A DNA stretch of 50,753 bases from an uncultured Planctomycetales bacterium (lineage in GTDB: Bacteria > Omnitrophota > Gorgyraeia > Gygaellales > JAHJCI01). How positions within the stretch are numbered: position 1 is the stretch's first letter; each line of letters starts with the position of its first letter. Below the pieces are notes generated by a model. The model worked only from the letters and a program-made list of their open reading frames with translations, did not search any database and was not told the DNA's origin. A program made the translations under genes and the position numbers. Positions 12,584-24,109 of this stretch are shown in pieces. The DNA is taken from the NCBI GenBank assembly GCA_964592485.1, contig CAZQEY010000010.1, forward strand, positions 1-50,753. Reading direction: 5' to 3'.

Positions 12584-13144
12584 TTATTTGCCCCCTATTA
12601 GCGCTAAGGTCTCGGCACGCGTCTTCTCGTTCTCTTTAAAAATCCCGCGCACAGCTGAGGTTACTGTCATAATGCCAGGTTTTTTTATCCCCCTGAAAGA
12701 CATACACAAATGTTCTGCCTCGATTACTACCATAACCCCCCGTGGTTTAAGTTTTTTCATAATAATCTCGGCAACCTGAGTGGTGAGCCTCTCTTGAACC
12801 TGAGGTCTCCTAGATAGCGTGTCAACAACGCGTGCTAATTTGCTCAAGCCAGTAACCCTTCCTCCCTTAGGAACATAAGCAATATGGGCACGGCCGACAA
12901 AAGGGATAAGATGATGCTCACAGACCGAGTAGAGTGGTATTCCTCTAAGCAGAATTATCTCATCATGTTTCTGCTCAAGGATTACGTCGAGTTCCTTTTC
13001 CGGATCCCGACTGACTCCCCCGAATATCTCTTCATACATTTCAGCAACTCGCCGCGGCGTGTCCCTCAAGTCTCTCTTCGTGGGGTCCTCGCCAATTGCA
13101 ACCAAGATATCTCTTATTGCCTTTTCTATTTTTTTCTTATCCAT
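12584..13144 (-). CDS. folE: GTP cyclohydrolase I
   Basis: [21 protein letters not shown] signature; 186 aa; AAAGGAG SD. Confidence 0.95.
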
Positions 13145-13213
13145 CCCCCCTCGCTCCTTTCAGTCGCTCAGGAGAAACCAGAGAACAAAATACAGATTTT
13201 CTGGTTTCTTTAA

Positions 13214-14656
13214 TTATTTACCTATACAAAATTCACTGAAGATTCTATCCAACAGTCCATCGGAAAAACGCCCACCCAAAATCTCATCTAAAAAACCAAT
13301 TGCCTCTTGGAGGTCCTGGGCGATGAACTCAAAAGGTAAATTCGCATTAGCTGATTTTCTCGCCCGCATAATTGATTTCTTTACCTTTCTAAGTTGCTGA
13401 ATATGCCTTAGATTAGTCACCCATACCGGAGTGTCTGATTTAATTTTACCACTAAATACAAATTGGGCAATTGCTTCTTCCAGCAGGTCGATATTTTTTT
13501 GTTTTTTTGCCGAGACCTGAACAACCTGCGGGAAGCGTTGAGCAATTTTATCGTACTCGATATTCTGCTTCAGGTCTATCTTGTTAATTAAAGCGATAGT
13601 CGGTTTGGAGTTAATCTTGCGCATTAAGACCCTATCTTCATACGATAAATCCCTGCTGCCGTCAAAAACAAGTAAGACCAAATTCGCCTCTCGGATATAG
13701 CGCTGGCTGCGGGAAACTGCCTTTTGTTCGATTAAATCGCCTGGTTCGATTATTCCGGCAGTATCAACAATCCTTATCGGAATGCCCCTAATATCTAAAA
13801 TGTCCTCAATTGTATCGCGGGTGGTCCCCGCAATCGGAGTAACGATTGAACGTTCACATTTTAATAATGCATTTAAAAGCGAGGATTTTCCGACATTGGG
13901 CCTGCCGCAAATAACCACCTTTATGCCTTCACGAAAAACCCTGCCCCTTTTTGAATTCTCCAAGAGAAATTCTAATTGATGATTTATTCGGTCTATACTT
14001 ATAGTGATATTCTTGATATCCACTGCTTCCAAGCCCTCATCGGGAAAATCAATATTTGCCTCCAAGATGGTAAGTAGTTCTAATAATTTATCTCTTAACT
14101 GATTCAACCTTTTTGAGAAATCCCCCTTCAATTGCTCAACGCTTGCCCTTAAGGCAGTATCCGTTTTTGCCCTAATAATATCTAATACTGCCTCAGCCTG
14201 GGTAAGGTCAATCCGACCATTTAAAAAGGCGCGCTTAGTAAATTCTCCCGGATTACTCAAGCGGGCGCCTAAACTTAAAACTAATTCCAGAGTTTTTCTT
14301 AAAGGGATAATCCCCCCGTGACAGTTAATCTCCACAATATCTTCGCGTGTATAACTTTTAGGCCTACGCATCACTGTCAGTATAACCTCATCAACAATAT
14401 CTGATTTTTGTCCGCCTTCATTTAATTTCGGCGAACAACCCGCCGAAGTCTTGACGAAGGCGGGTTGATTTTTCACAATCCATCCGTAATGAGTCGTATA
14501 GGTTTTAAAATTGGAAGGCTTTTGACCATCCTTGGAAACAAAGATCTTATCCGCAATAGTTATTGCCTTACTCCCGCTAATTCTCACAATACCAATGCCT
14601 GACTCACCAACCGGAGTGGAAATTGCCGCAATCGTATCATTTAGATTAAAATTCAT
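13214..14656 (-). CDS. mnmE: tRNA modification GTPase MnmE (TrmE) carrying a ~20 aa in-frame insertion
   Basis: GRPNVGKSSLLNAL, DTAG and C-terminal CIGK. The insertion PAFVKTSAGCSPKLNEGGQKS is encoded by a palindromic element. Confidence 0.95.
   Translation of the reverse strand: MNFNLNDTIAAISTPVGESGIGIVRISGSKAITIADKIFVSKDGQKPSNFKTYTTHYGWIVKNQPAFVKTSAGCSPKLNEGGQKSDIVDEVILTVMRRPKSYTREDIVEINCHGGIIPLRKTLELVLSLGARLSNPGEFTKRAFLNGRIDLTQAEAVLDIIRAKTDTALRASVEQLKGDFSKRLNQLRDKLLELLTILEANIDFPDEGLEAVDIKNITISIDRINHQLEFLLENSKRGRVFREGIKVVICGRPNVGKSSLLNALLKCERSIVTPIAGTTRDTIEDILDIRGIPIRIVDTAGIIEPGDLIEQKAVSRSQRYIREANLVLLVFDGSRDLSYEDRVLMRKINSKPTIALINKIDLKQNIEYDKIAQRFPQVVQVSAKKQKNIDLLEEAIAQFVFSGKIKSDTPVWVTNLRHIQQLRKVKKSIMRARKSANANLPFEFIAQDLQEAIGFLDEILGGRFSDGLLDRIFSEFCIGK
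14412..14464. repeat. GC-rich nested palindromic element inserted in-frame in mnmE
   Basis: Outer arms CCGCCTTC/GAAGGCGG. Inner hairpin TTCGGCG-aacaacc-CGCCGAA. No counterpart in E. coli MnmE. Confidence 0.7.
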
Positions 14657-14662
14657 CCTCTT

Positions 14663-16120
14663 TTAAGGGACACTCTTTGAGCCAATCGGGAAGGTGTCCC
14701 TACTCCTCAAGAGAAAATCCCTTGCCTCACCTACCAGAAATAAAGAACCGGTAACTAAAATTAAATCCTCGGGATTTGCTTTTTTGACGGCTAATTCTAT
14801 GGCCTCCTTTACCTTTCTAGTCTTATTTATGTGGGAACTGTTAACTGCGAGTTGTAAACTAACAGCCTGTTCAATCATATCCACGCCCCCTGCCCGGGGA
14901 TTATCTGCCTGAGTCAAGATAAGTTCATTACTCATCGGGACAAGCACCCGACAGATTCCCTTTATATCCTTATCCTGAGAAATGCCCAGAACCAAGATTA
15001 TGCGCTTATCAGGGAAGTTCGTAACAACTGTCTGCTGAAGCGCCTGGGCAGAAGCAACATTCTGCGCCCCGTCGAGAACTATCGAGGGCCTCTCTGAAAT
15101 AATCTCGAATCTACCCGGCCAAATAGTATTATATAACCCGGCTCTTATGAGTTCAAGATTCGCCCTTAATTGATAAAATCTGATTAAAACTAAAATGACC
15201 GCTACTGCCAGAGTAGCATTGACTACTTGATGCCTTCCTAACAATCTTATCCTTAAATCCACCCATTTACCTAAGGCTCCATTTATATTAAAACATTGCT
15301 GATTTCGTCCGCAATCCTTTGTCTGGAAAATTATATCCTTCCCAAGTTCATATAAAATTGCATTCTGCTTTCTGCATCTATCTCTGATTATTTCCATAAC
15401 TTCTTCATTCTGTGGCGCACTGATAACTACCAACGGCAGGTTGTCAACCGCCAACTGCGAACTATTCTTTATAATTCCTGCTTTCTCTCGAGCAATCTCA
15501 CTCAGGGTCTCACCCAACAGTCTTGTATGCTCATAACTTATTGGGGTTATTGCTGCAATTAAGGGATTAACTATATTGGTTGCATCCAGTCTTCCGCCCA
15601 GGCCTGTCTCTAATATAGCAAAATCTATCCTTTCCTGTCTAAAATATTTAAAAGCCAAGGTAGTATATACCTCAAAGAAGGAAAGTGCACCATATCTTGA
15701 CTGAGAATTATATTCCTCAATGTAGGGTCTTAGCTCCTCTACCAAATCTATTAATTCTCTTTCGGAGATCAAGCCTTCAAACTCAATTCTTGATTCTTGA
15801 TTCCTGTTTCCTGTTTCTCGCTGTCCTTGGCGAGGATTTAATATACGAATCCTCTCTCTAAAATCCGATAAATGCGGTGAAGTGTAGAGACCAACTTTGG
15901 AGCCAGCCTCACGCAATATATAGGCAATAAATGCCGAGGTCGAACCTTTACCTTTGGTCCCGGCAATATGAATGAATCTTAAATCGTCCTGGGGATTATT
16001 TAGTATCTTAAGGAATGCCTCTATCCGTTCTAATTTAAAGGATTGCCCATAAGGGTATTGGGAAATTTTTTCATAGTCAATAAATGAATTAAGATATTTA
16101 ATTGCTTCCGGGTAGGTCAT
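14663..16120 (-). CDS. folC: Folylpolyglutamate synthase / dihydrofolate synthase (Mur ligase family)
   Basis: HIAGTKGKGST P-loop. Start taken at MTYPEAIKYL, because the ORF-track start is a TTG inside a hairpin. Contains an in-frame low-complexity insertion (RQGQRETGNRNQES). Confidence 0.9.
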   Translation of the reverse strand: MTYPEAIKYLNSFIDYEKISQYPYGQSFKLERIEAFLKILNNPQDDLRFIHIAGTKGKGSTSAFIAYILREAGSKVGLYTSPHLSDFRERIRILNPRQGQRETGNRNQESRIEFEGLISERELIDLVEELRPYIEEYNSQSRYGALSFFEVYTTLAFKYFRQERIDFAILETGLGGRLDATNIVNPLIAAITPISYEHTRLLGETLSEIAREKAGIIKNSSQLAVDNLPLVVISAPQNEEVMEIIRDRCRKQNAILYELGKDIIFQTKDCGRNQQCFNINGALGKWVDLRIRLLGRHQVVNATLAVAVILVLIRFYQLRANLELIRAGLYNTIWPGRFEIISERPSIVLDGAQNVASAQALQQTVVTNFPDKRIILVLGISQDKDIKGICRVLVPMSNELILTQADNPRAGGVDMIEQAVSLQLAVNSSHINKTRKVKEAIELAVKKANPEDLILVTGSLFLVGEARDFLLRSRDTFPIGSKSVP

Positions 16121-16160
16121 ATTCGTTATTGCGTTCTTGCGTCCTTCGATAAACTCAGGA

Positions 16161-16192
16161 CGCAATCCTGAACTTGTTGAAGGATTGCGTTA
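16161..16192 (-). promoter_or_regulatory. 10 bp perfect inverted repeat hairpin between purH and folC (ACGCAATCCT...AGGATTGCGT), followed by a direct repeat AACGCTATAAC x2
   Basis: Seen in the sequence. No U-run follows, so it is not a classical terminator. Confidence 0.4.
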
Positions 16193-16228
16193 TTGCGTCA
16201 AACGCTATAACCCAATAACGCTATAACG

Positions 16229-17788
16229 TTAATGTTTGAAGTGTCTCCTGCCGGTGGTAACCATAGCAATATTATATTTATTGCAGGCCTTGATGATTTC
16301 CTCGTCGGAGATTGAGCCGCCGGGTTGGATTATTGCCTTCACACCTGCGCGCGCCGCCTGAATAACCGCATCGGCTTTGGGGAAAAAGGCATCTGAGGCA
16401 AGACAGGAGTTAGAGCTAAGCTTTCCTGCTTTTCTTTTGGCAATAATGACTGAATCTACGCGGGACATCTGGCCTGCTCCGATGCCTACGGTTTTAGTCC
16501 CCCGGACAAGAACGATGGCATTGGATTTGACGTGCTTGACTACCTTCCAGGCAAAGATAAGGCTATCCAGCTGATTACGGGTTGGCTTTTTCTTGGTTAC
16601 AACCTTAAGATTATTTATCTCATCCAATTCTATATCTTTATCCTGAATTAATAACCCTCCGCTTATCCTCTTGAGGTCAAATTCATTAAGCTTTTCTAAA
16701 TCCATTAATTCCAATAAACGCAGATTCTTCTTTTGCTTAAGTAGATTTAACGCATCCTGTTGGAATCCGGGGGCGATGATACACTCTATAAACCCGCTGC
16801 GCAGGATTAGGCTCGCTGTTTTTGAATTTACCTTTCTATTTAAACCTACAATACTACCAAAGGCAGAGAGGCTATCGCACTTCCAGGCATTCAGGAAAGC
16901 TTGTTCCAAGGATTTATCCTCGGCTGCGCCGCAGGGATTATTGTGTTTGGTAACTACTGCTGCAGGCTGTTTAAACTCAATTACCAATTCCCAAGTGCTG
17001 TTCAGGTCTAGGATATTATTAAAAGAAAGCTCCTTACCGTGAAGCTGTCTTAGATTAATCAAGCCTTGCCTTGCCTGCTTTTGTTTATAAAAAGCTGCCC
17101 CCTGATGGGAGTTTTCTCCATAACGCAATTCTTGAAGTTTACTAAATGCCAGATTTAATTCCTGAGGAAATTCCGCCCTTTGCCCCTTGATTTCTTGTTT
17201 TTTGCTGCTCAAATAATCATAAATCGCTGCGTCATAATGCGCAGTTAAGTTGAATACCTCAACCGCTAAACGCTTGGCTGTCTGAGTGCTTATTGCTCCT
17301 TTATTCTGACTGAGTTCTTCCAATATCGATTTATACTGATTGGAGCTGGATACAACTACCACTGACTGGTGGTTTTTGGCTGCCGAACGCAACATTGACG
17401 GTCCGCCAATATCAATATTCTCAATTGCCTCTTCTTCGGCTACGCCCGGTTTGGCAACTGTCTTCTCAAACGGATAGAGGTTTACTACTACCATATCAAT
17501 CAGGCCAATTCCGTGTCTTTCTAATGTCTGCATATGTCCGGGATTATCTCGCAAGGCAAGAAGCCCTGCATGAATCTTGGGATGCAAGGTTTTTACTCTC
17601 CCATCCAGCATCTCAGGGAAACCGGTATAATTAGAAACATCAATTACCGGGATATTATTTTCTTTTAATAATTTCGCTGTGCCGCCAGTAGAAAGAATCT
17701 CTACACCAAATTTAGACAAACTGCTGGCAAAATCAACAATCCCTGTCTTATCAGATACACTAATTAAAGCACGCTTAATTACAATCAT
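16229..17788 (-). CDS. purH: Bifunctional AICAR transformylase / IMP cyclohydrolase
   Basis: N-terminal [10 protein letters not shown]; 519 aa; AGGAGG SD. Confidence 0.95.
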
Positions 17789-17865: not shown

Positions 17866-17896
17866 TTGGCAAAAAGTCTGCCTGCCGGCAGGCAGG
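17866..17896 (-). terminator. Rho-independent terminator after the ychF-like gene (palindrome CTGCCTGCCGGCAGGCAG, then ACUUUUUGCC on the minus strand)
   Basis: GC-rich perfect palindrome followed by a U-run on the transcribed strand. Flanked by a direct repeat GGATGTCCCT x2. Confidence 0.6.
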
Positions 17897-17907
17897 GATG
17901 TCCCTAT

Positions 17908-18612
17908 TTATTTATTAAAGCGGAATTTGATTAAATCACCGTCCTGGACAATATAATCCTTACCCTCTATGCGCTGATGGTTATTTGCCCGCGCCTGATT
18001 TATGCCCCCGTCATTAGTCAAATCATTAAAGCTGATTACCTCGGCACGGATAAAGCCCTTTTGGATATCGGAATGGACTAAACCAGAGGCCTGCCAACAA
18101 CTCATCCCCTGTTTAATCGGCCAAGCACGGGCATCCTTCTCATTAGCAGTAAAAAATGAAATGTAGCCGAATAAGGTATAGGCTGGATGTAAAATCTTAT
18201 GCCTATCCTCCAAATCAGCCGGCTCAGCCAAGAAGACCGGCCGGAAAGTCAATAAGGAATATCCTGAGGCAATCCTATTTTCTTCCTCGGACAGTTGTAA
18301 CTCAAAGATAAAACCCTCCTTCTCTAATTGCTCCTTTAATTTCTTCAACAAACTTCTCTCATCATCCTCCTGGACATTAGTCAGCCTCTTCTCAATAAAT
18401 TCCATATCAGTAAGAATTAAATCAATGCGTTTTTCCTTCAGCGTGATTATGCCGTCGCATTCCCTAAGCCTCTGACGGTCAGTAATAATTTCTACCTCGA
18501 TATAGGTCTTCTTGGCGGAATTAGCCATCTGTTTTACTGTATCCAGACGCTTATCAATGATGTTTTCCTTGCCGGAAGAAAAATTATTACATTCAAAAAT
18601 GCCGATTTTCAT
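17908..18612 (-). CDS. YchF-like protein retaining only the C-terminal YchF/TGS region; G domain degenerate or deleted
   Basis: C-terminus aligns with the E. coli YchF C-terminus (KGFIRAEVISFNDL..., EGKDYIVQDGDLIKFRFN). P-loop position reads ECNNFSSGKEN. 234 aa versus ~363 aa. Confidence 0.7.
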   Translation of the reverse strand: MKIGIFECNNFSSGKENIIDKRLDTVKQMANSAKKTYIEVEIITDRQRLRECDGIITLKEKRIDLILTDMEFIEKRLTNVQEDDERSLLKKLKEQLEKEGFIFELQLSEEENRIASGYSLLTFRPVFLAEPADLEDRHKILHPAYTLFGYISFFTANEKDARAWPIKQGMSCWQASGLVHSDIQKGFIRAEVISFNDLTNDGGINQARANNHQRIEGKDYIVQDGDLIKFRFNK

Positions 18613-18669
18613 ACTACAACGCCTTTCTCTATAAAGGTGCTCAATTGAAAACTAAGATTTATAACCGGA

Positions 18670-20619
18670 TTAGGTCTGTTCTGCTTTTTTTTGTGCCTGG
18701 TACCTGCTGATAATCTCATTGGCTATTTTGGCAGGAACCTGTTCATAGTGGGAAAATTTCATTGTGTAGCTACCGCGACCACCGGTAATTGAACGCAGGT
18801 CATTGGCGTAGGTAAATATCTGAGCAAGGGGAACCTGGGCTTTTACTACCTGGTTTTTTCCTTTTACCTCCATTCCCATTACTCGTCCGCGGCGGGAATT
18901 AAGGTCGCCGGAGATTTGGCCTAAATATTCCTCAGGAATGAATACCTCTACATCCATTATTGGCTCAAGAAGGACCGGGCCGGCCTCCAGCACCGCCTTT
19001 CTTAAAGCCATCGAGCCGGCAATCTGAAAAGCCATATCTGAAGAATCTACCTCGTGGTAAGAGCCGTCATAAAGCTTAACCTGTATATCAACTAACTGGC
19101 ATCCGGCTAAAACCCCTTCAGACATTGCCTGCCTTACTCCCTTTTCTACAGAGGGAATAAAGTTGCGCGGTATAGCTCCGCCGACAATCTTATCCACAAA
19201 CTCAAATTCCTTACCTCGCTCAAGAGGACTTACCTCAATCCAGCAGTCACCGTATTGACCACGGCCACCTGATTGACGCTTGTATTTACCCTGGACACTA
19301 GCGGTCTTGGTGATTGTTTCTTTATAGGCAACCTTGGGTGTGCCTAAATCAACCTGAACATTAAATCTTTTTTTTAACCGATTAATCATTACATCTAAAT
19401 GCTGGTCTCCCATCCCGGAAATAATCAGTTCCCTGGTCTGCTGGTCGCGCGATACCTTAAAGGTAAGATCCTCAGCCACGAGCTTAGCCAATGCCTGGGA
19501 AATCTTTTCCTCGTCCTGGCGCGAATGTGGCTTTACTGAAGCAGAGATCATTGTCTCGGGGAAATCTATGGATTTAAAGATTACCGGATGTTTCGCTTCA
19601 GCCAACGAGTCTTGTGTCTTGGTCTGTTTTAACTTCGGTATTGCCACTATATCTCCGCAAACAGCTTGCTCTACAGGCCTTTGCTCCTTTCCCTGAACTA
19701 TATAAATCTGCGTAAAACGCTCTGTTATTTTCTGAGTAGCATTATAGAAGCTGCTACCAGTTGAGAGTTTACCAGAAAAAACACGCAATAAACTTAATTG
19801 ACCGACATAAGGGTCAAAGATGCTCTTAAAGACAAAGGCAGAAAATGGCGCATCGGCACTGAACTTAATCTCCCCCTCAACCTCTAAAGGTGTCCTTTGC
19901 TCAGGCGAAGCCAAACAGTCCTTAATAGCCTTTAGCAACTCCTTGATGCCTGCGTCTTGAGCGGCCGAGCCTGAGATTATAGGAAAGATTTTTGCCTCAA
20001 CTACTGCCCGGCCCAAACCAGAAGCCACCTCCTGAGGGTTTAGTTTTCCTTCGGCAAGATATTTCTCCAGGAGCTTATCATCGGCCTCAGCGACTAATTC
20101 GATTAATTCCTCAGAATTCTGCTGGCCCAAAAGAACTGCCTTTTTGGACAGTGCTGATTTTATGTCCGCAACTGCTTTATCAACATCGGCCCCCTCTTTA
20201 TCGGTCTTATTGATAAAGATAATCCGCGGGAGTCTTAATTCTTCTAAAAGGGCCCAGGCTTTTTCTGTGCCCACTTCAACCCCAGCTGTTGCATCAACCA
20301 CAAGAATAGCATTATCAACTGCACGGATTCCCGAGACGACCTCACCAAAGAAATCGGCATAGCCAGGGGTATCGATTATCTGGATATTTATACCCTCATA
20401 ATCGCAATAAAGCAAACTGGAATTGATTGAGTGCCTCTTTTCAATCTCATCCCAGCTATAATCACTTACAGTATTGCCCTCCGTAATGCTGCCCTTGCGG
20501 CTAGTGGCACCGCAGGTAAAAAGCAAACACTCGGAAAGCAAGGTCTTTCCCGACTGGGCATGACCAAGGAGAATAATTGTTCGTTTATCCTGAACAGGCA
20601 TTTTAACCGTTTGTCCCAT
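18670..20619 (-). CDS. EF-G-like translational GTPase paralog; G3 motif is DTPGY (catalytic His replaced by Tyr)
   Basis: G1 GHAQSGKT, G3 DTPGYADF (canonical DTPGHVDF), G4 NKTD. EF-G domains II-V are recognisable. 649 aa. Confidence 0.85.
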   Translation of the reverse strand: MGQTVKMPVQDKRTIILLGHAQSGKTLLSECLLFTCGATSRKGSITEGNTVSDYSWDEIEKRHSINSSLLYCDYEGINIQIIDTPGYADFFGEVVSGIRAVDNAILVVDATAGVEVGTEKAWALLEELRLPRIIFINKTDKEGADVDKAVADIKSALSKKAVLLGQQNSEELIELVAEADDKLLEKYLAEGKLNPQEVASGLGRAVVEAKIFPIISGSAAQDAGIKELLKAIKDCLASPEQRTPLEVEGEIKFSADAPFSAFVFKSIFDPYVGQLSLLRVFSGKLSTGSSFYNATQKITERFTQIYIVQGKEQRPVEQAVCGDIVAIPKLKQTKTQDSLAEAKHPVIFKSIDFPETMISASVKPHSRQDEEKISQALAKLVAEDLTFKVSRDQQTRELIISGMGDQHLDVMINRLKKRFNVQVDLGTPKVAYKETITKTASVQGKYKRQSGGRGQYGDCWIEVSPLERGKEFEFVDKIVGGAIPRNFIPSVEKGVRQAMSEGVLAGCQLVDIQVKLYDGSYHEVDSSDMAFQIAGSMALRKAVLEAGPVLLEPIMDVEVFIPEEYLGQISGDLNSRRGRVMGMEVKGKNQVVKAQVPLAQIFTYANDLRSITGGRGSYTMKFSHYEQVPAKIANEIISRYQAQKKAEQT

Positions 20620-20817
20620 TAGAAATATTTATTCTGTCTTTTGGCAGAATGGTTTTTTTAAACAGCATTTATTCTGGGAACAAAATACTCTAGAGATAAA
20701 GGATAGATTATTATGGTATGAAATATTATACGAAGGAAGGTGGGGTGCGTCAAGAAAAATTCATCTCAAGCTTATATTATTTGTAACCAACCGTTGTAGT
20801 ATTTTTACAATTGATAA

Positions 20818-21840
20818 CTAAAATCTATATTTCACAACTGCGGAAGCTATCCAAAAGCAGGAAGTTATTCTATCGTCTACATCAGAAGTTACGCCGACAT
20901 AGGGGCCTGCGTAATAGGATTGGTGCTGGGTGCCGTCCGTATCAATATCCGTGAATTCGCCGCTTATTTGCAGTACCCAGTTAGGCAGGAATTGCCAATT
21001 AGCATCTACATTGACAATATAGGCATCTCCATCGCAGTCTCCCTCAGAAAGTTTATATCTTAAAATATGGTCGTCTCTATCTTCGGCATTAGCCGAAGGA
21101 CTATAGCCAAATCTCAAATTCAACTGAAATTTATCCCCGAATAAGACATTGGTATTGAAACCAAAATAGGGAATCTTGTATTCTACCTCATAATCAAGTG
21201 TATTGCCCGTAACATATGTGGTGTAATCGCCGGCATACGGACCATAACCGACCTGATTCGTATCGCTAATCTCGTATTCAAATTTTTGATACCTGTATCC
21301 TACCATCGGGCCGATACTTATATTCTCGGCAGGATAAAAACTAAACACATAGTTTATGTCAATTATATCAACATCCGCATCTGCTTCTGATTCCGAATAA
21401 ATATCCAACCCGGGGTGAGTGGTGCCGTAATAGTAAATGTCATAAGCATCATTCAACCAGTCAGAATCTTTCATTTCTCCTGCGTCATTAGTAATATCGG
21501 TAAACCACCCTAAAGTTAATCTGGCCCTGTCTTGCTTTTCATTATAGGGATTTTTATAAGCTAAGGCTGCCTCAACGCCTAATAAAAAATTATCTAAAGG
21601 AAACTCTAACTCGCTCTCTCCTTCATAAATGACAGCTTCAGTAAAATTTATATGGTAGGTTGTATCTCCTCTGATATACCCTGTCTGCAATCCCAAGGTA
21701 GCGCGCATATTCCCCATCCAGTCTAATTCTTCTTCGGTGAAGATATTTCGCAAATCTGCAAAAAGAGAACTCTCTTGAGCAAATAAAAGAGTAGGAAAAA
21801 TTAGAAACAAACCAAGAATACAGATTACTTTAGACCTCAT
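20818..21840 (-). CDS. Outer-membrane beta-barrel protein
   Basis: Signal peptide MRSKVICILGLFLIFPTLLFAQ. Rich in alternating Y/G/T/D. C-terminal ...VKYRF with a terminal Phe. Confidence 0.6.
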   Translation of the reverse strand: MRSKVICILGLFLIFPTLLFAQESSLFADLRNIFTEEELDWMGNMRATLGLQTGYIRGDTTYHINFTEAVIYEGESELEFPLDNFLLGVEAALAYKNPYNEKQDRARLTLGWFTDITNDAGEMKDSDWLNDAYDIYYYGTTHPGLDIYSESEADADVDIIDINYVFSFYPAENISIGPMVGYRYQKFEYEISDTNQVGYGPYAGDYTTYVTGNTLDYEVEYKIPYFGFNTNVLFGDKFQLNLRFGYSPSANAEDRDDHILRYKLSEGDCDGDAYIVNVDANWQFLPNWVLQISGEFTDIDTDGTQHQSYYAGPYVGVTSDVDDRITSCFWIASAVVKYRF

Positions 21841-21854
21841 TTTATTCTCTCTAC

Positions 21855-23036
21855 CTATTCTAAATATGTATAGATTTTGCCGCGGAAATTTCGCAGGACG
21901 TATTTGCCCTTTGCCTGAGACAGGAGGTAATTCGGCCCAACGGGAATCTTTCCCCCTCCACCCGGGCCATCAATCACATAGATAGGGACTGCGTATCCTG
22001 AGGTATGTCCGCGCAGTTTCTCAATAATATTTATCCCTGCGGCAACTGGTGTACGGAAGTGCTGGGTTCCTTTCACCGGGTCACACTGATAGATATAGTA
22101 GGGACGAACGCGTATCTTTAAGAGTTCGTGCATAAGTTTTTTCATAATAAAAGGCCGGTCATTTATCCCTTTTAGAAGTACAGTCTGACTTCCTAAAGGA
22201 AAACCATTATCAGTAAACATATCGCAGGCAATCCGGCAACGCTTGGTAATCTCTTTGGGATGGTTAAAATGAATGCTTATCCAGATTGGGCTATACTTCT
22301 TCAGCATCAAAATTAAGCCTTCGGTTATCCGCTGAGGCAGGGTTACTGGAAGGCGGGTGCCAATCCTTAAAAACTCCACATGAGAAATGCTACGGATCTT
22401 CTTGATTAATTCCTCTAAAACATTATCCTTAAGCATTAAAGGGTCCCCGCCGGAAATTAGCACATCGCGAATCTTACGATTAGCTTTTATGTATTCAATA
22501 GCCTCATTACAGTTATTATTAGCATTTGTTCTTTTATTCTCACCTACCAGCCTTCTTCTTGTGCAGTGACGACAATACATTGCGCACTGCTCAGTAGCCA
22601 GAAGAAGTACACGGTCAGGATAGCGGTGAACAAGATGAGGCGCAGGAGAATCACGGTCTTCTGCGCAAGGGTCGACCATCTCATGCGGACCAATCTGTGA
22701 CTCGTAGATAGTAGGAACGGACTGGCGCCTAATTGGACAGCGAGCATCTTCAGGGTCGATAAGGGTGAGCCAGTAAGGAGTAATTGCCATGCACATCCTG
22801 CCACGAGCCTTCTTTATCCCTTCTGTCTCTTCGGGGGTAAGTTTTATAATCTGACTTAGTTGTTCAATGGTTGTAATTCGATTCTTTGCCTGCCAATGCC
22901 AATCCTCCCAATCTAAGGGATTGACATCCTTAAACAATCCTATCTGCTGATAATCTAACTGCGCCCTTCTTCTTATTGAAACTACTGGCGCAGTAAGCAC
23001 ACTCCCCGGCATCTTTTGAGTCTGGACTTCCATCAT
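21855..23036 (-). CDS. kamA: Lysine 2,3-aminomutase family radical SAM enzyme (KamA/AblA-like; EpmB not excluded)
   Basis: CAMYCRHCTRRR cluster typical of the KamA family; 393 aa. Confidence 0.8.
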   Translation of the reverse strand: MMEVQTQKMPGSVLTAPVVSIRRRAQLDYQQIGLFKDVNPLDWEDWHWQAKNRITTIEQLSQIIKLTPEETEGIKKARGRMCMAITPYWLTLIDPEDARCPIRRQSVPTIYESQIGPHEMVDPCAEDRDSPAPHLVHRYPDRVLLLATEQCAMYCRHCTRRRLVGENKRTNANNNCNEAIEYIKANRKIRDVLISGGDPLMLKDNVLEELIKKIRSISHVEFLRIGTRLPVTLPQRITEGLILMLKKYSPIWISIHFNHPKEITKRCRIACDMFTDNGFPLGSQTVLLKGINDRPFIMKKLMHELLKIRVRPYYIYQCDPVKGTQHFRTPVAAGINIIEKLRGHTSGYAVPIYVIDGPGGGGKIPVGPNYLLSQAKGKYVLRNFRGKIYTYLE

Positions 23037-23119
23037 AGATATAGCCTGCTATTTTTAAAACACCTCACAGTAAATTATCCAACTTCTCAAGCTAAATGAA
23101 CTCTTGAGAAAATCACAAA

Positions 23120-24109
23120 TTACAGGTTATAACGCTTAAATGCGCTCTGTAATATCTTATCAAGCATCTGGGGATAACTGATGCCTAAAACCTTAGGAAT
23201 CAGCATAAATACATCCTCAGTAGCCAAACAAGGCAAAGGGTTAAGCTCTAAGACATAAGGGTTATCCTGTTCGTCCACGCGAAAATCCACCCTGCCAAAA
23301 TCAAGACAGTCAACTGCCTGGTAAGCACGAAGCGCTATCTGTTTAAGTTTATCCTCCAATTCTTTGCTGATTGGAGCAGGGCAAATGTATTCTAATGCGG
23401 GTGAGGTAATATGTGCAAAGGTATAAAATTTCTCTCCCAAATCCAACTGGCCTTCAATTTTTACCTGCACGGGAGGAAACGCCTCAGGGGCATCATTTCC
23501 CACAATTGCCACAGTAAATTCCTTCCCCTTGACAAACTCCTCTACTAATGCGGGCTGTCGATAGGTAGTGATTATATAATCGACCCTCTTAATTAAATCT
23601 CGGTGATTATGTATCCGCGCATTTTCATCAATACCCTTGGAAGAGCCTTCAAAGCGAGGCTTCACCATAAGGGGAAATTTAAAATGATTGGTATTAATTA
23701 AAGAATCTGTCCGCTTAACCTCAATAAATTTAGGCGTAGGAATCCCCTCAGCAAGAAATACCTTTTTAGCCATTAGTTTATCCAGTGTAAGCGCCTGAGT
23801 TAAGCCGTCTGAACCAACAAAAGGAATACCCTTCATCTCCAGAATAACCGGAACCTGTGATTCACGATTTCTCCCACTTAAGCCTTCTGAGATATTAAAG
23901 ACGATATCCACACCTAGATTCACCAGATTGTCAAGGAGTAAAGAGACATTGCCAATTCTTTTCACCCGATACCCCAGGGATTCGATTGCCTGGGTAATCA
24001 GGTCTATCGTAGCCGGGTGGTCAAACTCAGCATTAGCATCGTCTGGATCGTCTTCTTTTAACTGATAATCGGTCTTTAAATCGTAGGTTAATCCAATAGT
24101 CTTGCTCAT
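23120..24109 (-). CDS. D-alanine--D-alanine ligase-like ATP-grasp ligase
   Basis: ATP-grasp fold motifs: ...MVKPRFEGSSKGI..., ...ELNPLP.... Immediately downstream of kamA. Confidence 0.6.
   Translation of the reverse strand: MSKTIGLTYDLKTDYQLKEDDPDDANAEFDHPATIDLITQAIESLGYRVKRIGNVSLLLDNLVNLGVDIVFNISEGLSGRNRESQVPVILEMKGIPFVGSDGLTQALTLDKLMAKKVFLAEGIPTPKFIEVKRTDSLINTNHFKFPLMVKPRFEGSSKGIDENARIHNHRDLIKRVDYIITTYRQPALVEEFVKGKEFTVAIVGNDAPEAFPPVQVKIEGQLDLGEKFYTFAHITSPALEYICPAPISKELEDKLKQIALRAYQAVDCLDFGRVDFRVDEQDNPYVLELNPLPCLATEDVFMLIPKVLGISYPQMLDKILQSAFKRYNL

What the first reader, a model, noticed from the sequence alone, without database searches (positions are those of the whole stretch)
17908..18612. 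Pseudo-GTPase YchF homologue immediately downstream of the EF-G-like gene
The C-terminal ~160 residues align convincingly with YchF (KGFIRAEV..., GKDYIVQDGDLIKFRFN). The N-terminal G domain is reduced to ~70 aa with the P-loop degenerated to ECNNFSSGKEN. Two adjacent translation-factor paralogs that have both lost catalytic features suggest a dedicated ribosome-associated module. Its function is unknown.
Basis: partly seen in the sequence, partly recalled or inferred. Interest (0 to 1): 0.55.

Follow-up and report, generated by a model that had tools for sequence, protein, structure and literature searches.

The report
YchF ortholog without a nucleotide pocket
This gene is a conserved, shrunken version of the near-universal ribosome-associated ATPase YchF that keeps the protein's scaffold but has lost every part needed to bind ATP, which suggests that at least one YchF function does not need ATP.

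Summary

It is not a pseudogene. Lengths stay at 225-235 aa across hundreds of sequence clusters. The family occurs in 36 GTDB species, mostly Omnitrophota, with some MAGs labelled Verrucomicrobiota or other phyla. None of 288 short forms has a Walker A motif.

A 338-aa Omnitrophota YchF that keeps its P-loop occupies the same slot upstream of purH-folC-mnmE-folE. The short form is therefore most likely the lineage's own ychF ortholog, reached by stepwise decay, and not an extra paralog.

The EF-G neighbour has Tyr or Phe at the catalytic His in 19 of 19 orthologs. It is adjacent in only 20 of 25 Omnitrophota loci and in none of the Verrucomicrobiota-labelled ones, so an obligate two-gene module is only partly supported.

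The likely function, which is inferred, is nucleotide-independent binding to the ribosome. This is a new variant of a known kind, of moderate interest.

The parts
17908..18612 (-). CDS of the 234-aa P-loop-less YchF ('mini-YchF'), stop codon included
18439..18612 (-). aa 1-58: remnant of the G-domain sheet (beta1, beta2, the 'DxRLD' helix, beta3, beta4). Walker A, alpha1, switch I, the G3 glycine, switch II and the His114 loop are absent.
   Evidence: Alignment with E. coli YchF: residues 13-38, 75-91 and 103-124 have no counterpart. AF2 strands at 2-6, 14-18, 34-43 and 54-58. Invariant K2 G4 G14 D20 R22 K34 G54.
18268..18438 (-). aa 59-115: helical hairpin (the YchF helical domain), shortened at its tip and acidic (net charge -5)
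   Evidence: AF2 helices 59-79 and 83-97. E. coli 149-157 (lysine-rich tip, K149/K152/K156) is deleted. Charge count. The 50S contacts of this domain in E. coli are described in PMC11814078.
18199..18267 (-). aa 116-138: beta5 strand 'LLTFRPVFLA' (the strand that precedes G4 in YchF) plus an acidic linker. G4 NxxE through G5 is deleted.
   Evidence: E. coli 206-242 and 250-265 have no counterpart. A weak phmmer stretch links aa 82-128 to 1JAL 158-204.
17911..18198 (-). aa 139-234: connecting helix and the intact TGS-like C-terminal domain, the most conserved part (mean column identity 0.79)
18622..18629 (-). Shine-Dalgarno-like GAGAAAGG, 9 nt upstream of the ATG
   Evidence: Read directly from the sequence.
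18670..20619 (-). Upstream neighbour: EF-G2-type elongation factor G paralog, 649 aa, with DTPGY in place of DTPGH
   Evidence: Pfam EF-G domains and NF009381 at 851 bits (cutoff 583). DxPG[Y/F] in 19/19 orthologs, with G1 GHAQSGKT and G4 NKxD intact.
20725..20753 (-). Promoter-like site TTGACG-17-TATAAT (11 of 12) ahead of the EF-G gene
   Evidence: Consensus scan. This is a pattern match only.
17868..17895 (-). Terminator-like hairpin CTGCCTGCCGGCAGGCAG followed by ACTTTTTGCC, starting 13 nt after the mini-YchF stop codon
   Evidence: Consensus scan. The MFE fold of the spacer does not use this exact hairpin, so this is suggestive only.
12584..17788 (-). Downstream syntenic anchor purH-folC-mnmE-folE, shared with the loci of the P-loop-bearing 338-aa YchF
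   Evidence: Pfam. tblastn synteny in L001-L031 and L082. The same genes follow the 338-aa YchF in L083, L084, L088 and L089.

Best explanation
Shown: the gene encodes the lineage's own YchF, reduced in place to a 234-aa scaffold. The scaffold consists of a remnant of the G-domain beta-sheet, a shortened acidic helical hairpin and an intact TGS domain. All five nucleotide-binding motifs and the catalytic His114 loop are deleted, so the protein cannot act as an ATPase or GTPase switch. It is an expressed-type gene under purifying selection, not a decaying remnant. The deletions appear to have come in steps: canonical YchF, then a 338-aa Omnitrophota form that has already lost switch II and the His114 loop, then this form.

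Inferred: it keeps the binding half of YchF's job and has dropped the ATP-driven release half. That would make it a nucleotide-independent binder of the large-subunit interface (uL14/bL19 region) or of rRNA, through the helical hairpin and the TGS cleft. It would then work like a passive anti-association or ribosome-parking factor controlled by its abundance.

In this window it is probably co-transcribed with an EF-G2-type factor whose catalytic His is Tyr. That pairing is frequent but not obligatory.
For: Identity and anatomy:
- hhalign against canonical YchF: probability 100, E 1.4e-67, end to end.
- MAFFT against E. coli YchF shows six deletions totalling 129 aa. They cover Walker A, switch I, switch II, H114, the K-rich tip, and G4 to G5.
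- AF2 pLDDT 92.7, pTM 0.83.
- Foldseek TMq 0.72 to 50S-bound E. coli YchF 8kie_y.

Selection:
- More than 120 clusters of 234 aa, down to 51% identity.
- 36 GTDB species, and further 225-233 aa lineages.
- The N-terminal remnant is nearly as conserved as the rest (0.68 against 0.79) and has 13 invariant residues.

Orthology:
- The 338-aa P-loop YchF lies directly upstream of purH, or of folC-mnmE(-folE), in L083, L084, L088 and L089.
- The short form is closer to that form (35% profile identity) than to generic YchF (26%).
- None of the 36 assemblies that carry the short form returned a second YchF locus in the same scan.
- The window itself holds no second copy.

Mechanistic basis from the literature (PMC11814078):
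- E. coli YchF binds the 50S subunit mainly through its helical domain, at uL14/bL19/H62.
- Hydrolysis-dead H114A stays bound.
- The authors conclude that the ATPase is needed for release and not for subunit dissociation.
- The acidic alpha4/alpha5 surface and L181, which face uL14/bL19, have counterparts in the short form.
Against: - The lysine-rich hairpin tip that contacts H62 (K149/K152/K156) and the alpha7 region of the ATPase domain, both part of the E. coli 50S interface, are deleted. The E. coli binding mode therefore cannot simply be carried over.
- Position N20, which cross-links to the 30S subunit and IF3 in E. coli (PMC8138138), is also deleted.
- Wild-type YchF binds ribosomes only in the triphosphate state, so a form without a pocket might not reach the binding conformation.
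- No whole genome could be searched, so a canonical ychF elsewhere in these genomes is not excluded.
- No binding or expression data exist.
Confidence: 0.5

Rival explanations
1. Dedicated partner of the neighbouring EF-G2-type factor. The short YchF would bind to or act with the hydrolysis-impaired EF-G on the ribosome, and the two would work only as a pair.
For: - The two genes are adjacent, on the same strand, 10-180 nt apart, in 20 of 25 informative Omnitrophota loci.
- In the window, a promoter-like site lies before the EF-G gene and a terminator-like hairpin lies right after the YchF gene.
- Both proteins have lost catalytic residues, in 19/19 EF-G orthologs and in all short YchFs.
Against: - The EF-G gene is absent between kamA and the YchF gene in L003, L005, L006, L012 and L020, and from all Verrucomicrobiota-labelled loci.
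- The YchF slot upstream of purH exists without any EF-G in the loci of the 338-aa form. The adjacency could therefore come from insertion of an EF-G gene next to an older ychF-purH array.
- No interaction test was possible.
Confidence: 0.2
2. Extra paralog acting as a decoy or regulator of a canonical YchF encoded elsewhere in the same genome.
For: - Whole genomes could not be searched.
- The pattern scan would miss canonical YchFs that lack the HSDIQ[KR]GF motif.
- The Verrucomicrobiota-labelled copies sit in unrelated contexts and could be acquired additions.
Against: - Positional orthology with the P-loop 338-aa form.
- No shared assembly among 8 named 338-aa proteins and about 18 named short proteins. 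The one close pair of accessions lies in different assemblies.
- No second YchF locus was returned for any of the 36 assemblies that carry the short form.
Confidence: 0.12
3. The scaffold has been re-used for a job away from the ribosome, for example a TGS-mediated protein or small-molecule adaptor tied to the folate, purine and tRNA-modification genes that follow it.
For: - Linkage to purH-folC-mnmE-folE is tight and near-universal in Omnitrophota, sometimes with overlapping stop and start codons.
- The known ribosome-contact elements are partly deleted.
- Residues specific to the short form are conserved in the TGS domain: W173, N211, H212 and K234.
Against: - The same linkage holds for the P-loop-bearing form, so it predates the reduction and may be plain operon history.
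- The Verrucomicrobiota-labelled copies lack the linkage.
- No domain has been gained.
Confidence: 0.15
4. Pseudogene, frameshifted ychF or mis-called start codon.
For: It is 129 residues shorter than E. coli YchF and scores 112.7 bits against a TIGR00092 cutoff of 279.2.
Against: - The ORF is maximal, and only 57 nt separate it from the upstream gene.
- The length stays between 225 and 235 aa across hundreds of clusters and 36 species.
- There is strong conservation and a confident compact fold.
Confidence: 0.01

Closest known systems
Canonical YchF/OLA1 (TIGR00092; Obg-family P-loop ATPase; PDB 1JAL, 2DBY, 2OHF, 5EE0, 8KIE)
   Different: It lacks Walker A, switch I, the DxxG glycine with switch II, catalytic His114, NxxE and G5. 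It also lacks the lysine-rich hairpin tip and Cys35. It has 234 residues against about 363, and it fails the TIGR00092 cutoff.
Omnitrophota 337-343 aa YchF (annotated 'redox-regulated ATPase YchF' or 'DUF933 domain-containing protein'; P0270-P0317)
   Same: It occupies the same genomic slot upstream of purH/folC/mnmE/folE. It is the closest profile match (35% identity), shares HSDIQKGF, and shares the switch II deletion.
   Different: It keeps Walker A (GxxGxGKS/T), D.PG, NxxE and G5. It has lost only switch II (E. coli 78-90) and the His114 loop (109-116). It looks like the intermediate step.
RsfS and eIF6 (nucleotide-independent anti-association factors that bind uL14 and its eukaryotic counterpart)
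   Same: This is only a proposed functional analogy: passive binding at the subunit interface near uL14/bL19, where E. coli YchF also binds (PMC11814078).
   Different: The folds are unrelated. Binding of the short YchF to this site has not been tested.
Bacteroides EF-G2, an EF-G paralog reported to lack GTPase activity (Han et al. 2023, cited in PMC12172202; that paper was not readable here)
   Same: It is a conceptual precedent for a translation factor that works without NTP hydrolysis. The neighbouring gene here has the EF-G2-type G1 motif 'GH...GKT'.
   Different: This precedent concerns the neighbour, not the YchF gene. NF058620 EFG2_Bacteroid scores 532 bits against a cutoff of 1000, so the neighbour is not a member of that family.

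Membership tests
YchF/OLA1 ATPase (TIGR00092) | Walker A / G1 GxxxxGK[ST] | tested here: not met
   0 of 288 short forms have it, against 210 of 223 long forms. E. coli residues 13-38 have no counterpart.
YchF/OLA1 ATPase (TIGR00092) | G3 DxxG with switch II, and catalytic His114 | tested here: not met
   E. coli 75-91 and 103-124 are deleted. The role of H114 comes from PMC11814078, reference 34.
YchF/OLA1 ATPase (TIGR00092) | G4 NxxE (the YchF-specific base-specificity motif) and G5 | tested here: not met
   E. coli 206-242 is deleted. The strand 'LLT.KPVFLA' runs straight into an acidic linker.
YchF/OLA1 ATPase (TIGR00092) | Helical (coiled-coil) domain inserted into the G domain | tested here: met
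   AF2 helices 59-79 and 83-97, aligned to YchF alpha4/alpha5. The tip is 9 residues shorter.
YchF/OLA1 ATPase (TIGR00092) | C-terminal TGS-like domain (PF06071) | tested here: met
   E 2.8e-31 at aa 151-233, found in 34 of 34 members.
YchF/OLA1 ATPase (TIGR00092) | Whole-protein score above the curated equivalog cutoff | tested here: not met
   112.7 bits against a cutoff of 279.2.
YchF/OLA1 ATPase (TIGR00092) | Orthology by descent (same locus as a bona fide ychF in related genomes) | tested here: met
   The 338-aa P-loop YchF lies upstream of purH/folC/mnmE/folE in L083, L084, L088 and L089.
YchF/OLA1 ATPase (TIGR00092) | ATP hydrolysis and nucleotide-dependent ribosome binding | not testable with these tools
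   This needs purified protein. The sequence predicts no nucleotide binding.
Pseudo-NTPases (a G-domain fold that neither binds nor hydrolyses nucleotide) | Recognisable G-domain ancestry with loss of the nucleotide-binding motifs, kept under selection | tested here: met
   Ancestry. Motif loss. Conservation. Only about half of the G-domain sheet survives, so this goes further than the usual point-mutated pseudo-GTPases (own knowledge).
EF-G2 / EFG II (neighbouring gene) | G1 beginning with Gly (GHxxxGKT) rather than Ala, with an EF-G five-domain architecture | tested here: met
   GHAQSGKT in 19/19. Criterion taken from PMC12172202. Pfam domains.

The most novel reading that the evidence does not exclude
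A whole bacterial phylum of ultra-small cells (most Omnitrophota, with related copies in other PVC-type lineages) has replaced the 'universal ATPase' YchF with a version that has no nucleotide pocket. It often co-transcribes this with an EF-G2-type translocase whose catalytic His is Tyr. Together the two would form a hydrolysis-free pair of translation factors, one for ribosome parking and one for slow translocation, that saves NTP. It would also show that the universally conserved core function of YchF lies in the helical-TGS scaffold and not in the ATPase.
Probability: 0.15. Interest if true: 0.75.

Novelty: new variant of a known kind. Interest (0 to 1): 0.5.

Why it matters
YchF is one of the most widely conserved bacterial genes. 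It is found in 99.4% of non-CPR and 97% of CPR genomes and is a BAC120 marker (PMC12641178 supplement). Its core function is still debated.

A natural series of forms, from canonical to hydrolysis-loop-less (338 aa) to pocket-less (234 aa), all at the same locus, is a ready-made dissection of which parts of YchF are indispensable. It argues that the helical hairpin, the TGS domain and the 'DxRLD' core carry a function that does not need ATP.

There is also a practical point. These genomes fail the TIGR00092 marker model (112.7 bits against a cutoff of 279.2). This can bias completeness estimates and marker-based phylogenies for Omnitrophota. The current annotation, 'DUF933 domain-containing protein', hides the relationship to YchF.

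Tried and rejected
- Looking for a canonical ychF in the same genomes. The single genome-contig scan was pattern-limited and capped at 80 loci. Comparing NCBI accession blocks of 8 long and about 18 short proteins showed no shared assembly. The one close pair (MFC1590704 and MFC1592528) lies in different assemblies. This is suggestive, not decisive.
- The NJ tree of short, 338-aa and canonical forms. The short forms are monophyletic but sit on a long branch, so the tree does not resolve their sister group. I relied on synteny and profile identity instead.
- The afdb50 fold library was not available.
- The Bacteroides EF-G2 paper (PMC9841332) is not held. Margus 2011 does not discuss the catalytic His.
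- Literature searches for a P-loop-less YchF, for DUF933 with Omnitrophica, and for pseudoGTPase with YchF found nothing. Seymour 2023 on Omnitrophota does not mention YchF or EF-G.
- A fused EF-G plus YchF structure prediction to test an interaction was considered and dropped.
- dN/dS was not computed, because the nearest DNA orthologs are only 66-68% identical in protein and synonymous sites are saturated.
- The intrinsic terminator after the gene is only a consensus match. The MFE fold of the spacer prefers another pairing.

Full report
**1. What is at the coordinates**

Positions 17908-18612 hold a 234-aa ORF on the minus strand. It begins at the first ATG after an in-frame stop, so it cannot be extended upstream. 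GAGAAAGG lies 9 nt before the ATG. The gene upstream on the same strand (18670-20619, 649 aa) has all five EF-G domains and passes the NCBIfam EF-G subfamily model NF009381 (851 bits, cutoff 583). Only 57 nt separate the two genes. Downstream come purH, folC, mnmE and folE. The window contains no other YchF-like sequence; tblastn with E. coli YchF and with the 338-aa form finds only this gene.

**2. Homology to YchF runs the full length**

- Pfam finds only YchF-GTPase_C (PF06071, aa 151-233, E 2.8e-31).
- The YchF equivalog TIGR00092 scores 112.7 bits against a cutoff of 279.2.
- phmmer against PDB sequences finds only YchF/OLA1 chains (1JAL, E 1.6e-26).
- A profile of 34 family members aligns end to end with a profile of canonical YchFs (hhalign probability 100, E 1.4e-67, columns 1-235 to 9-373).
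- The AlphaFold2 model is confident (pLDDT 92.7, pTM 0.83).
- The 15 best Foldseek PDB hits are all YchF/OLA1 structures (query-normalised TM 0.68-0.76). They include E. coli YchF bound to the 50S subunit, 8kie_y.

**3. What has been lost**

I aligned the protein to E. coli YchF, fetched from NC_000913.3. The following E. coli residues have no counterpart, 129 residues in all when the first two residues are included:

| E. coli residues | What they contain |
|---|---|
| 13-38 | Walker A GKS, alpha1, switch I, Cys35 |
| 75-91 | G3 glycine and switch II |
| 103-124 | catalytic His114 loop |
| 149-157 | lysine-rich tip of the helical hairpin |
| 206-242 | G4 NxxE through G5 |
| 250-265 | segment before the helix that leads into the TGS domain |

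What survives is:
- beta1;
- beta2 with the conserved 'DxRLD' helix;
- beta3 and beta4;
- the hairpin helices;
- the 'LLT.KP' strand;
- the TGS domain.

The G-to-D spacing is the same (6 residues), and the segment lies in a predicted strand. Walker A is therefore deleted, not mutated.

No family member matches MMR_HSR1 or any other P-loop Pfam model, even at E<=1 (0 of 34). None of 288 fetched proteins of 220-241 aa has GxxxxGK[ST], against 210 of 223 long YchFs.

**4. It is a conserved family, not a pseudogene**

- The 90%-cluster database returns more than 120 clusters, nearly all of exactly 234 aa, down to 51% identity. Where named, they are 'DUF933 domain-containing protein [Candidatus Omnitrophota bacterium]'.
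- The scan of GTDB species representatives finds full-length short forms in 36 species. Most are Omnitrophota. Others are labelled Verrucomicrobiota (including the RefSeq record Limisphaera sp. 4302-co), Planctomycetales and others.
- The exhaustive search of 50% representatives finds roughly 30 representatives of 225-235 aa ahead of, and interleaved with, the canonical forms of 340-370 aa.
- A profile of the more divergent short forms retrieves further Omnitrophota. It also retrieves MAGs labelled Elusimicrobiota, PVC group and Victivallales.
- The N-terminal remnant is almost as conserved as the TGS domain (mean column identity 0.68 against 0.79). It has 13 invariant residues.

**5. Ortholog or paralog?**

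A second YchF type exists in Omnitrophota-labelled genomes. It has 337-343 aa and is often named 'redox-regulated ATPase YchF'. It keeps Walker A, D.PG, NxxE and G5. It has already lost switch II (E. coli 78-90) and the His114 loop (109-116).

This form lies in the same slot as the short form:

| Locus | Gene order |
|---|---|
| L088 | RNR, YchF337, purH, folC, mnmE, folE |
| L083 | RNR, YchF337, purH |
| L084 (CP070780.1, 1.43 Mb) | YchF339, one small ORF, folC, mnmE |
| L089 | YchF338, one small ORF, folC, mnmE |

L053 and L087 differ. Short-form loci read (ATP-grasp x2)-kamA-(OMP)-(EF-G)-short YchF-purH-folC-mnmE-folE.

The short form is also closer to the 338-aa profile (35% identity) than to generic YchF (26%). 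I therefore read the three forms as a stepwise in-place reduction, and the short form as the positional ortholog.

Direct proof that no canonical ychF sits elsewhere in these genomes could not be obtained. The indirect checks found no co-occurrence.

**6. The EF-G neighbour and the 'module' idea**

All 19 EF-G orthologs next to a short YchF have DxPGY (one has F) in place of the catalytic His. Their G1 (GHAQSGKT) and G4 (NKxD) motifs are intact. A G1 that starts with Gly is the EF-G2 signature described in PMC12172202.

In the window, a strong sigma-70-like match (TTGACG-17-TATAAT) precedes the EF-G gene. A GC-rich palindrome with a T-tract follows the YchF stop codon. This fits a two-gene transcription unit, but these are pattern matches only, and the MFE fold does not favour that hairpin.

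Across loci, the EF-G gene is directly upstream in 20 of 25 informative Omnitrophota loci. It is absent in L003, L005, L006, L012 and L020, in all Verrucomicrobiota-labelled loci, and in the loci of the 338-aa form. The pairing is common but not obligatory.

**7. Likely mechanism (inferred)**

In E. coli, YchF binds the 50S subunit at uL14/bL19/H62, on the subunit interface, mainly through its helical domain. The hydrolysis-dead H114A mutant stays bound. The authors conclude that the ATPase is probably needed for release and not for subunit dissociation, and they compare the site with those of RsfS and eIF6 (PMC11814078).

The short form keeps an acidic hairpin (net charge -5) and the hydrophobic counterpart of L181, both of which face uL14/bL19 in E. 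coli. It lacks the lysine tip that touches H62 and the alpha7 region. It also lacks position N20, which cross-links to the 30S subunit and IF3 (PMC8138138).

The best-supported reading is a nucleotide-independent ribosome or rRNA binder that keeps the 'bind' half of YchF and has dropped the ATP-driven 'release' half, so that it is controlled by its abundance. I am highly confident of the anatomy and ancestry (about 0.95). I am much less confident of this function (about 0.35).

**8. Novelty**

I found no paper that describes a P-loop-less YchF. Databases label it only as DUF933, or mislabel it as a ribosome-binding ATPase. YchF is present in 99.4% of non-CPR genomes and is a BAC120 marker (PMC12641178 supplement). 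A phylum-scale pocket-less ortholog is therefore a notable variant, though not a new kind of system.

Noticed in passing
window 18670-20619 (-), and orthologs in L001-L031 and L082: The EF-G-type neighbour has Tyr (Phe in L031) at the catalytic His of the DxPGH motif in 19 of 19 orthologs, with G1 (GHAQSGKT) and G4 (NKxD) intact. The Gly-first G1 motif is the EF-G2/EFG II signature. This suggests a translocase that binds GTP but hydrolyses it poorly.
   Followed up: partly
L053:4163-5179, L083:2204-3217, L084:6001-7020, L088:8001-9014, L089:4209-5225: A 337-343 aa Omnitrophota YchF keeps Walker A, NxxE and G5 but lacks switch II and the catalytic His114 loop. It looks like an intermediate in the decay series and may itself be unable to hydrolyse.
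   Followed up: partly
window 21855-24109, and the same block in L003-L031 and L082: A conserved upstream block holds a KamA-like radical-SAM lysine 2,3-aminomutase, preceded by D-Ala-D-Ala-ligase-like ATP-grasp genes (two in most loci). This could be a beta-lysine ligation pathway. Any link to translation, such as an EF-P-type modification, is unknown.
   Followed up: no
window 20818-21840 (-): An Omptin/Pom-like outer-membrane protein gene lies between kamA and the EF-G gene. It is present in the window, and a similar ORF is present in L006, but it is absent from many orthologous loci.
   Followed up: no
L081:145-348, L084:2015-2209, L087:5270-5461, L088:5136-5339, L089:218-409: A small (63-67 aa) ORF with a MamI (PF26391) hit lies just upstream of the ribonucleotide reductase gene in loci of the 338-aa YchF. 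In L089 the reductase also carries an intein.
   Followed up: no
L003:4673-6074: Where the EF-G gene is missing between kamA and the short YchF, two unrelated ORFs (203 and 267 aa) fill the gap. This suggests local replacement and not simple deletion.
   Followed up: no
window 17868-17895 (-): The perfect palindrome CTGCCTGCCGGCAGGCAG followed by ACTTTTTGCC starts 13 nt after the stop codon of the short YchF gene. It may be a partial terminator between this gene and purH.
   Followed up: partly
P0137 and P0138 (representatives): Two 'canonical' YchF representatives contain internally repeated segments. These are probably assembly or gene-calling chimeras, so P0138 was left out of the tree.
   Followed up: no
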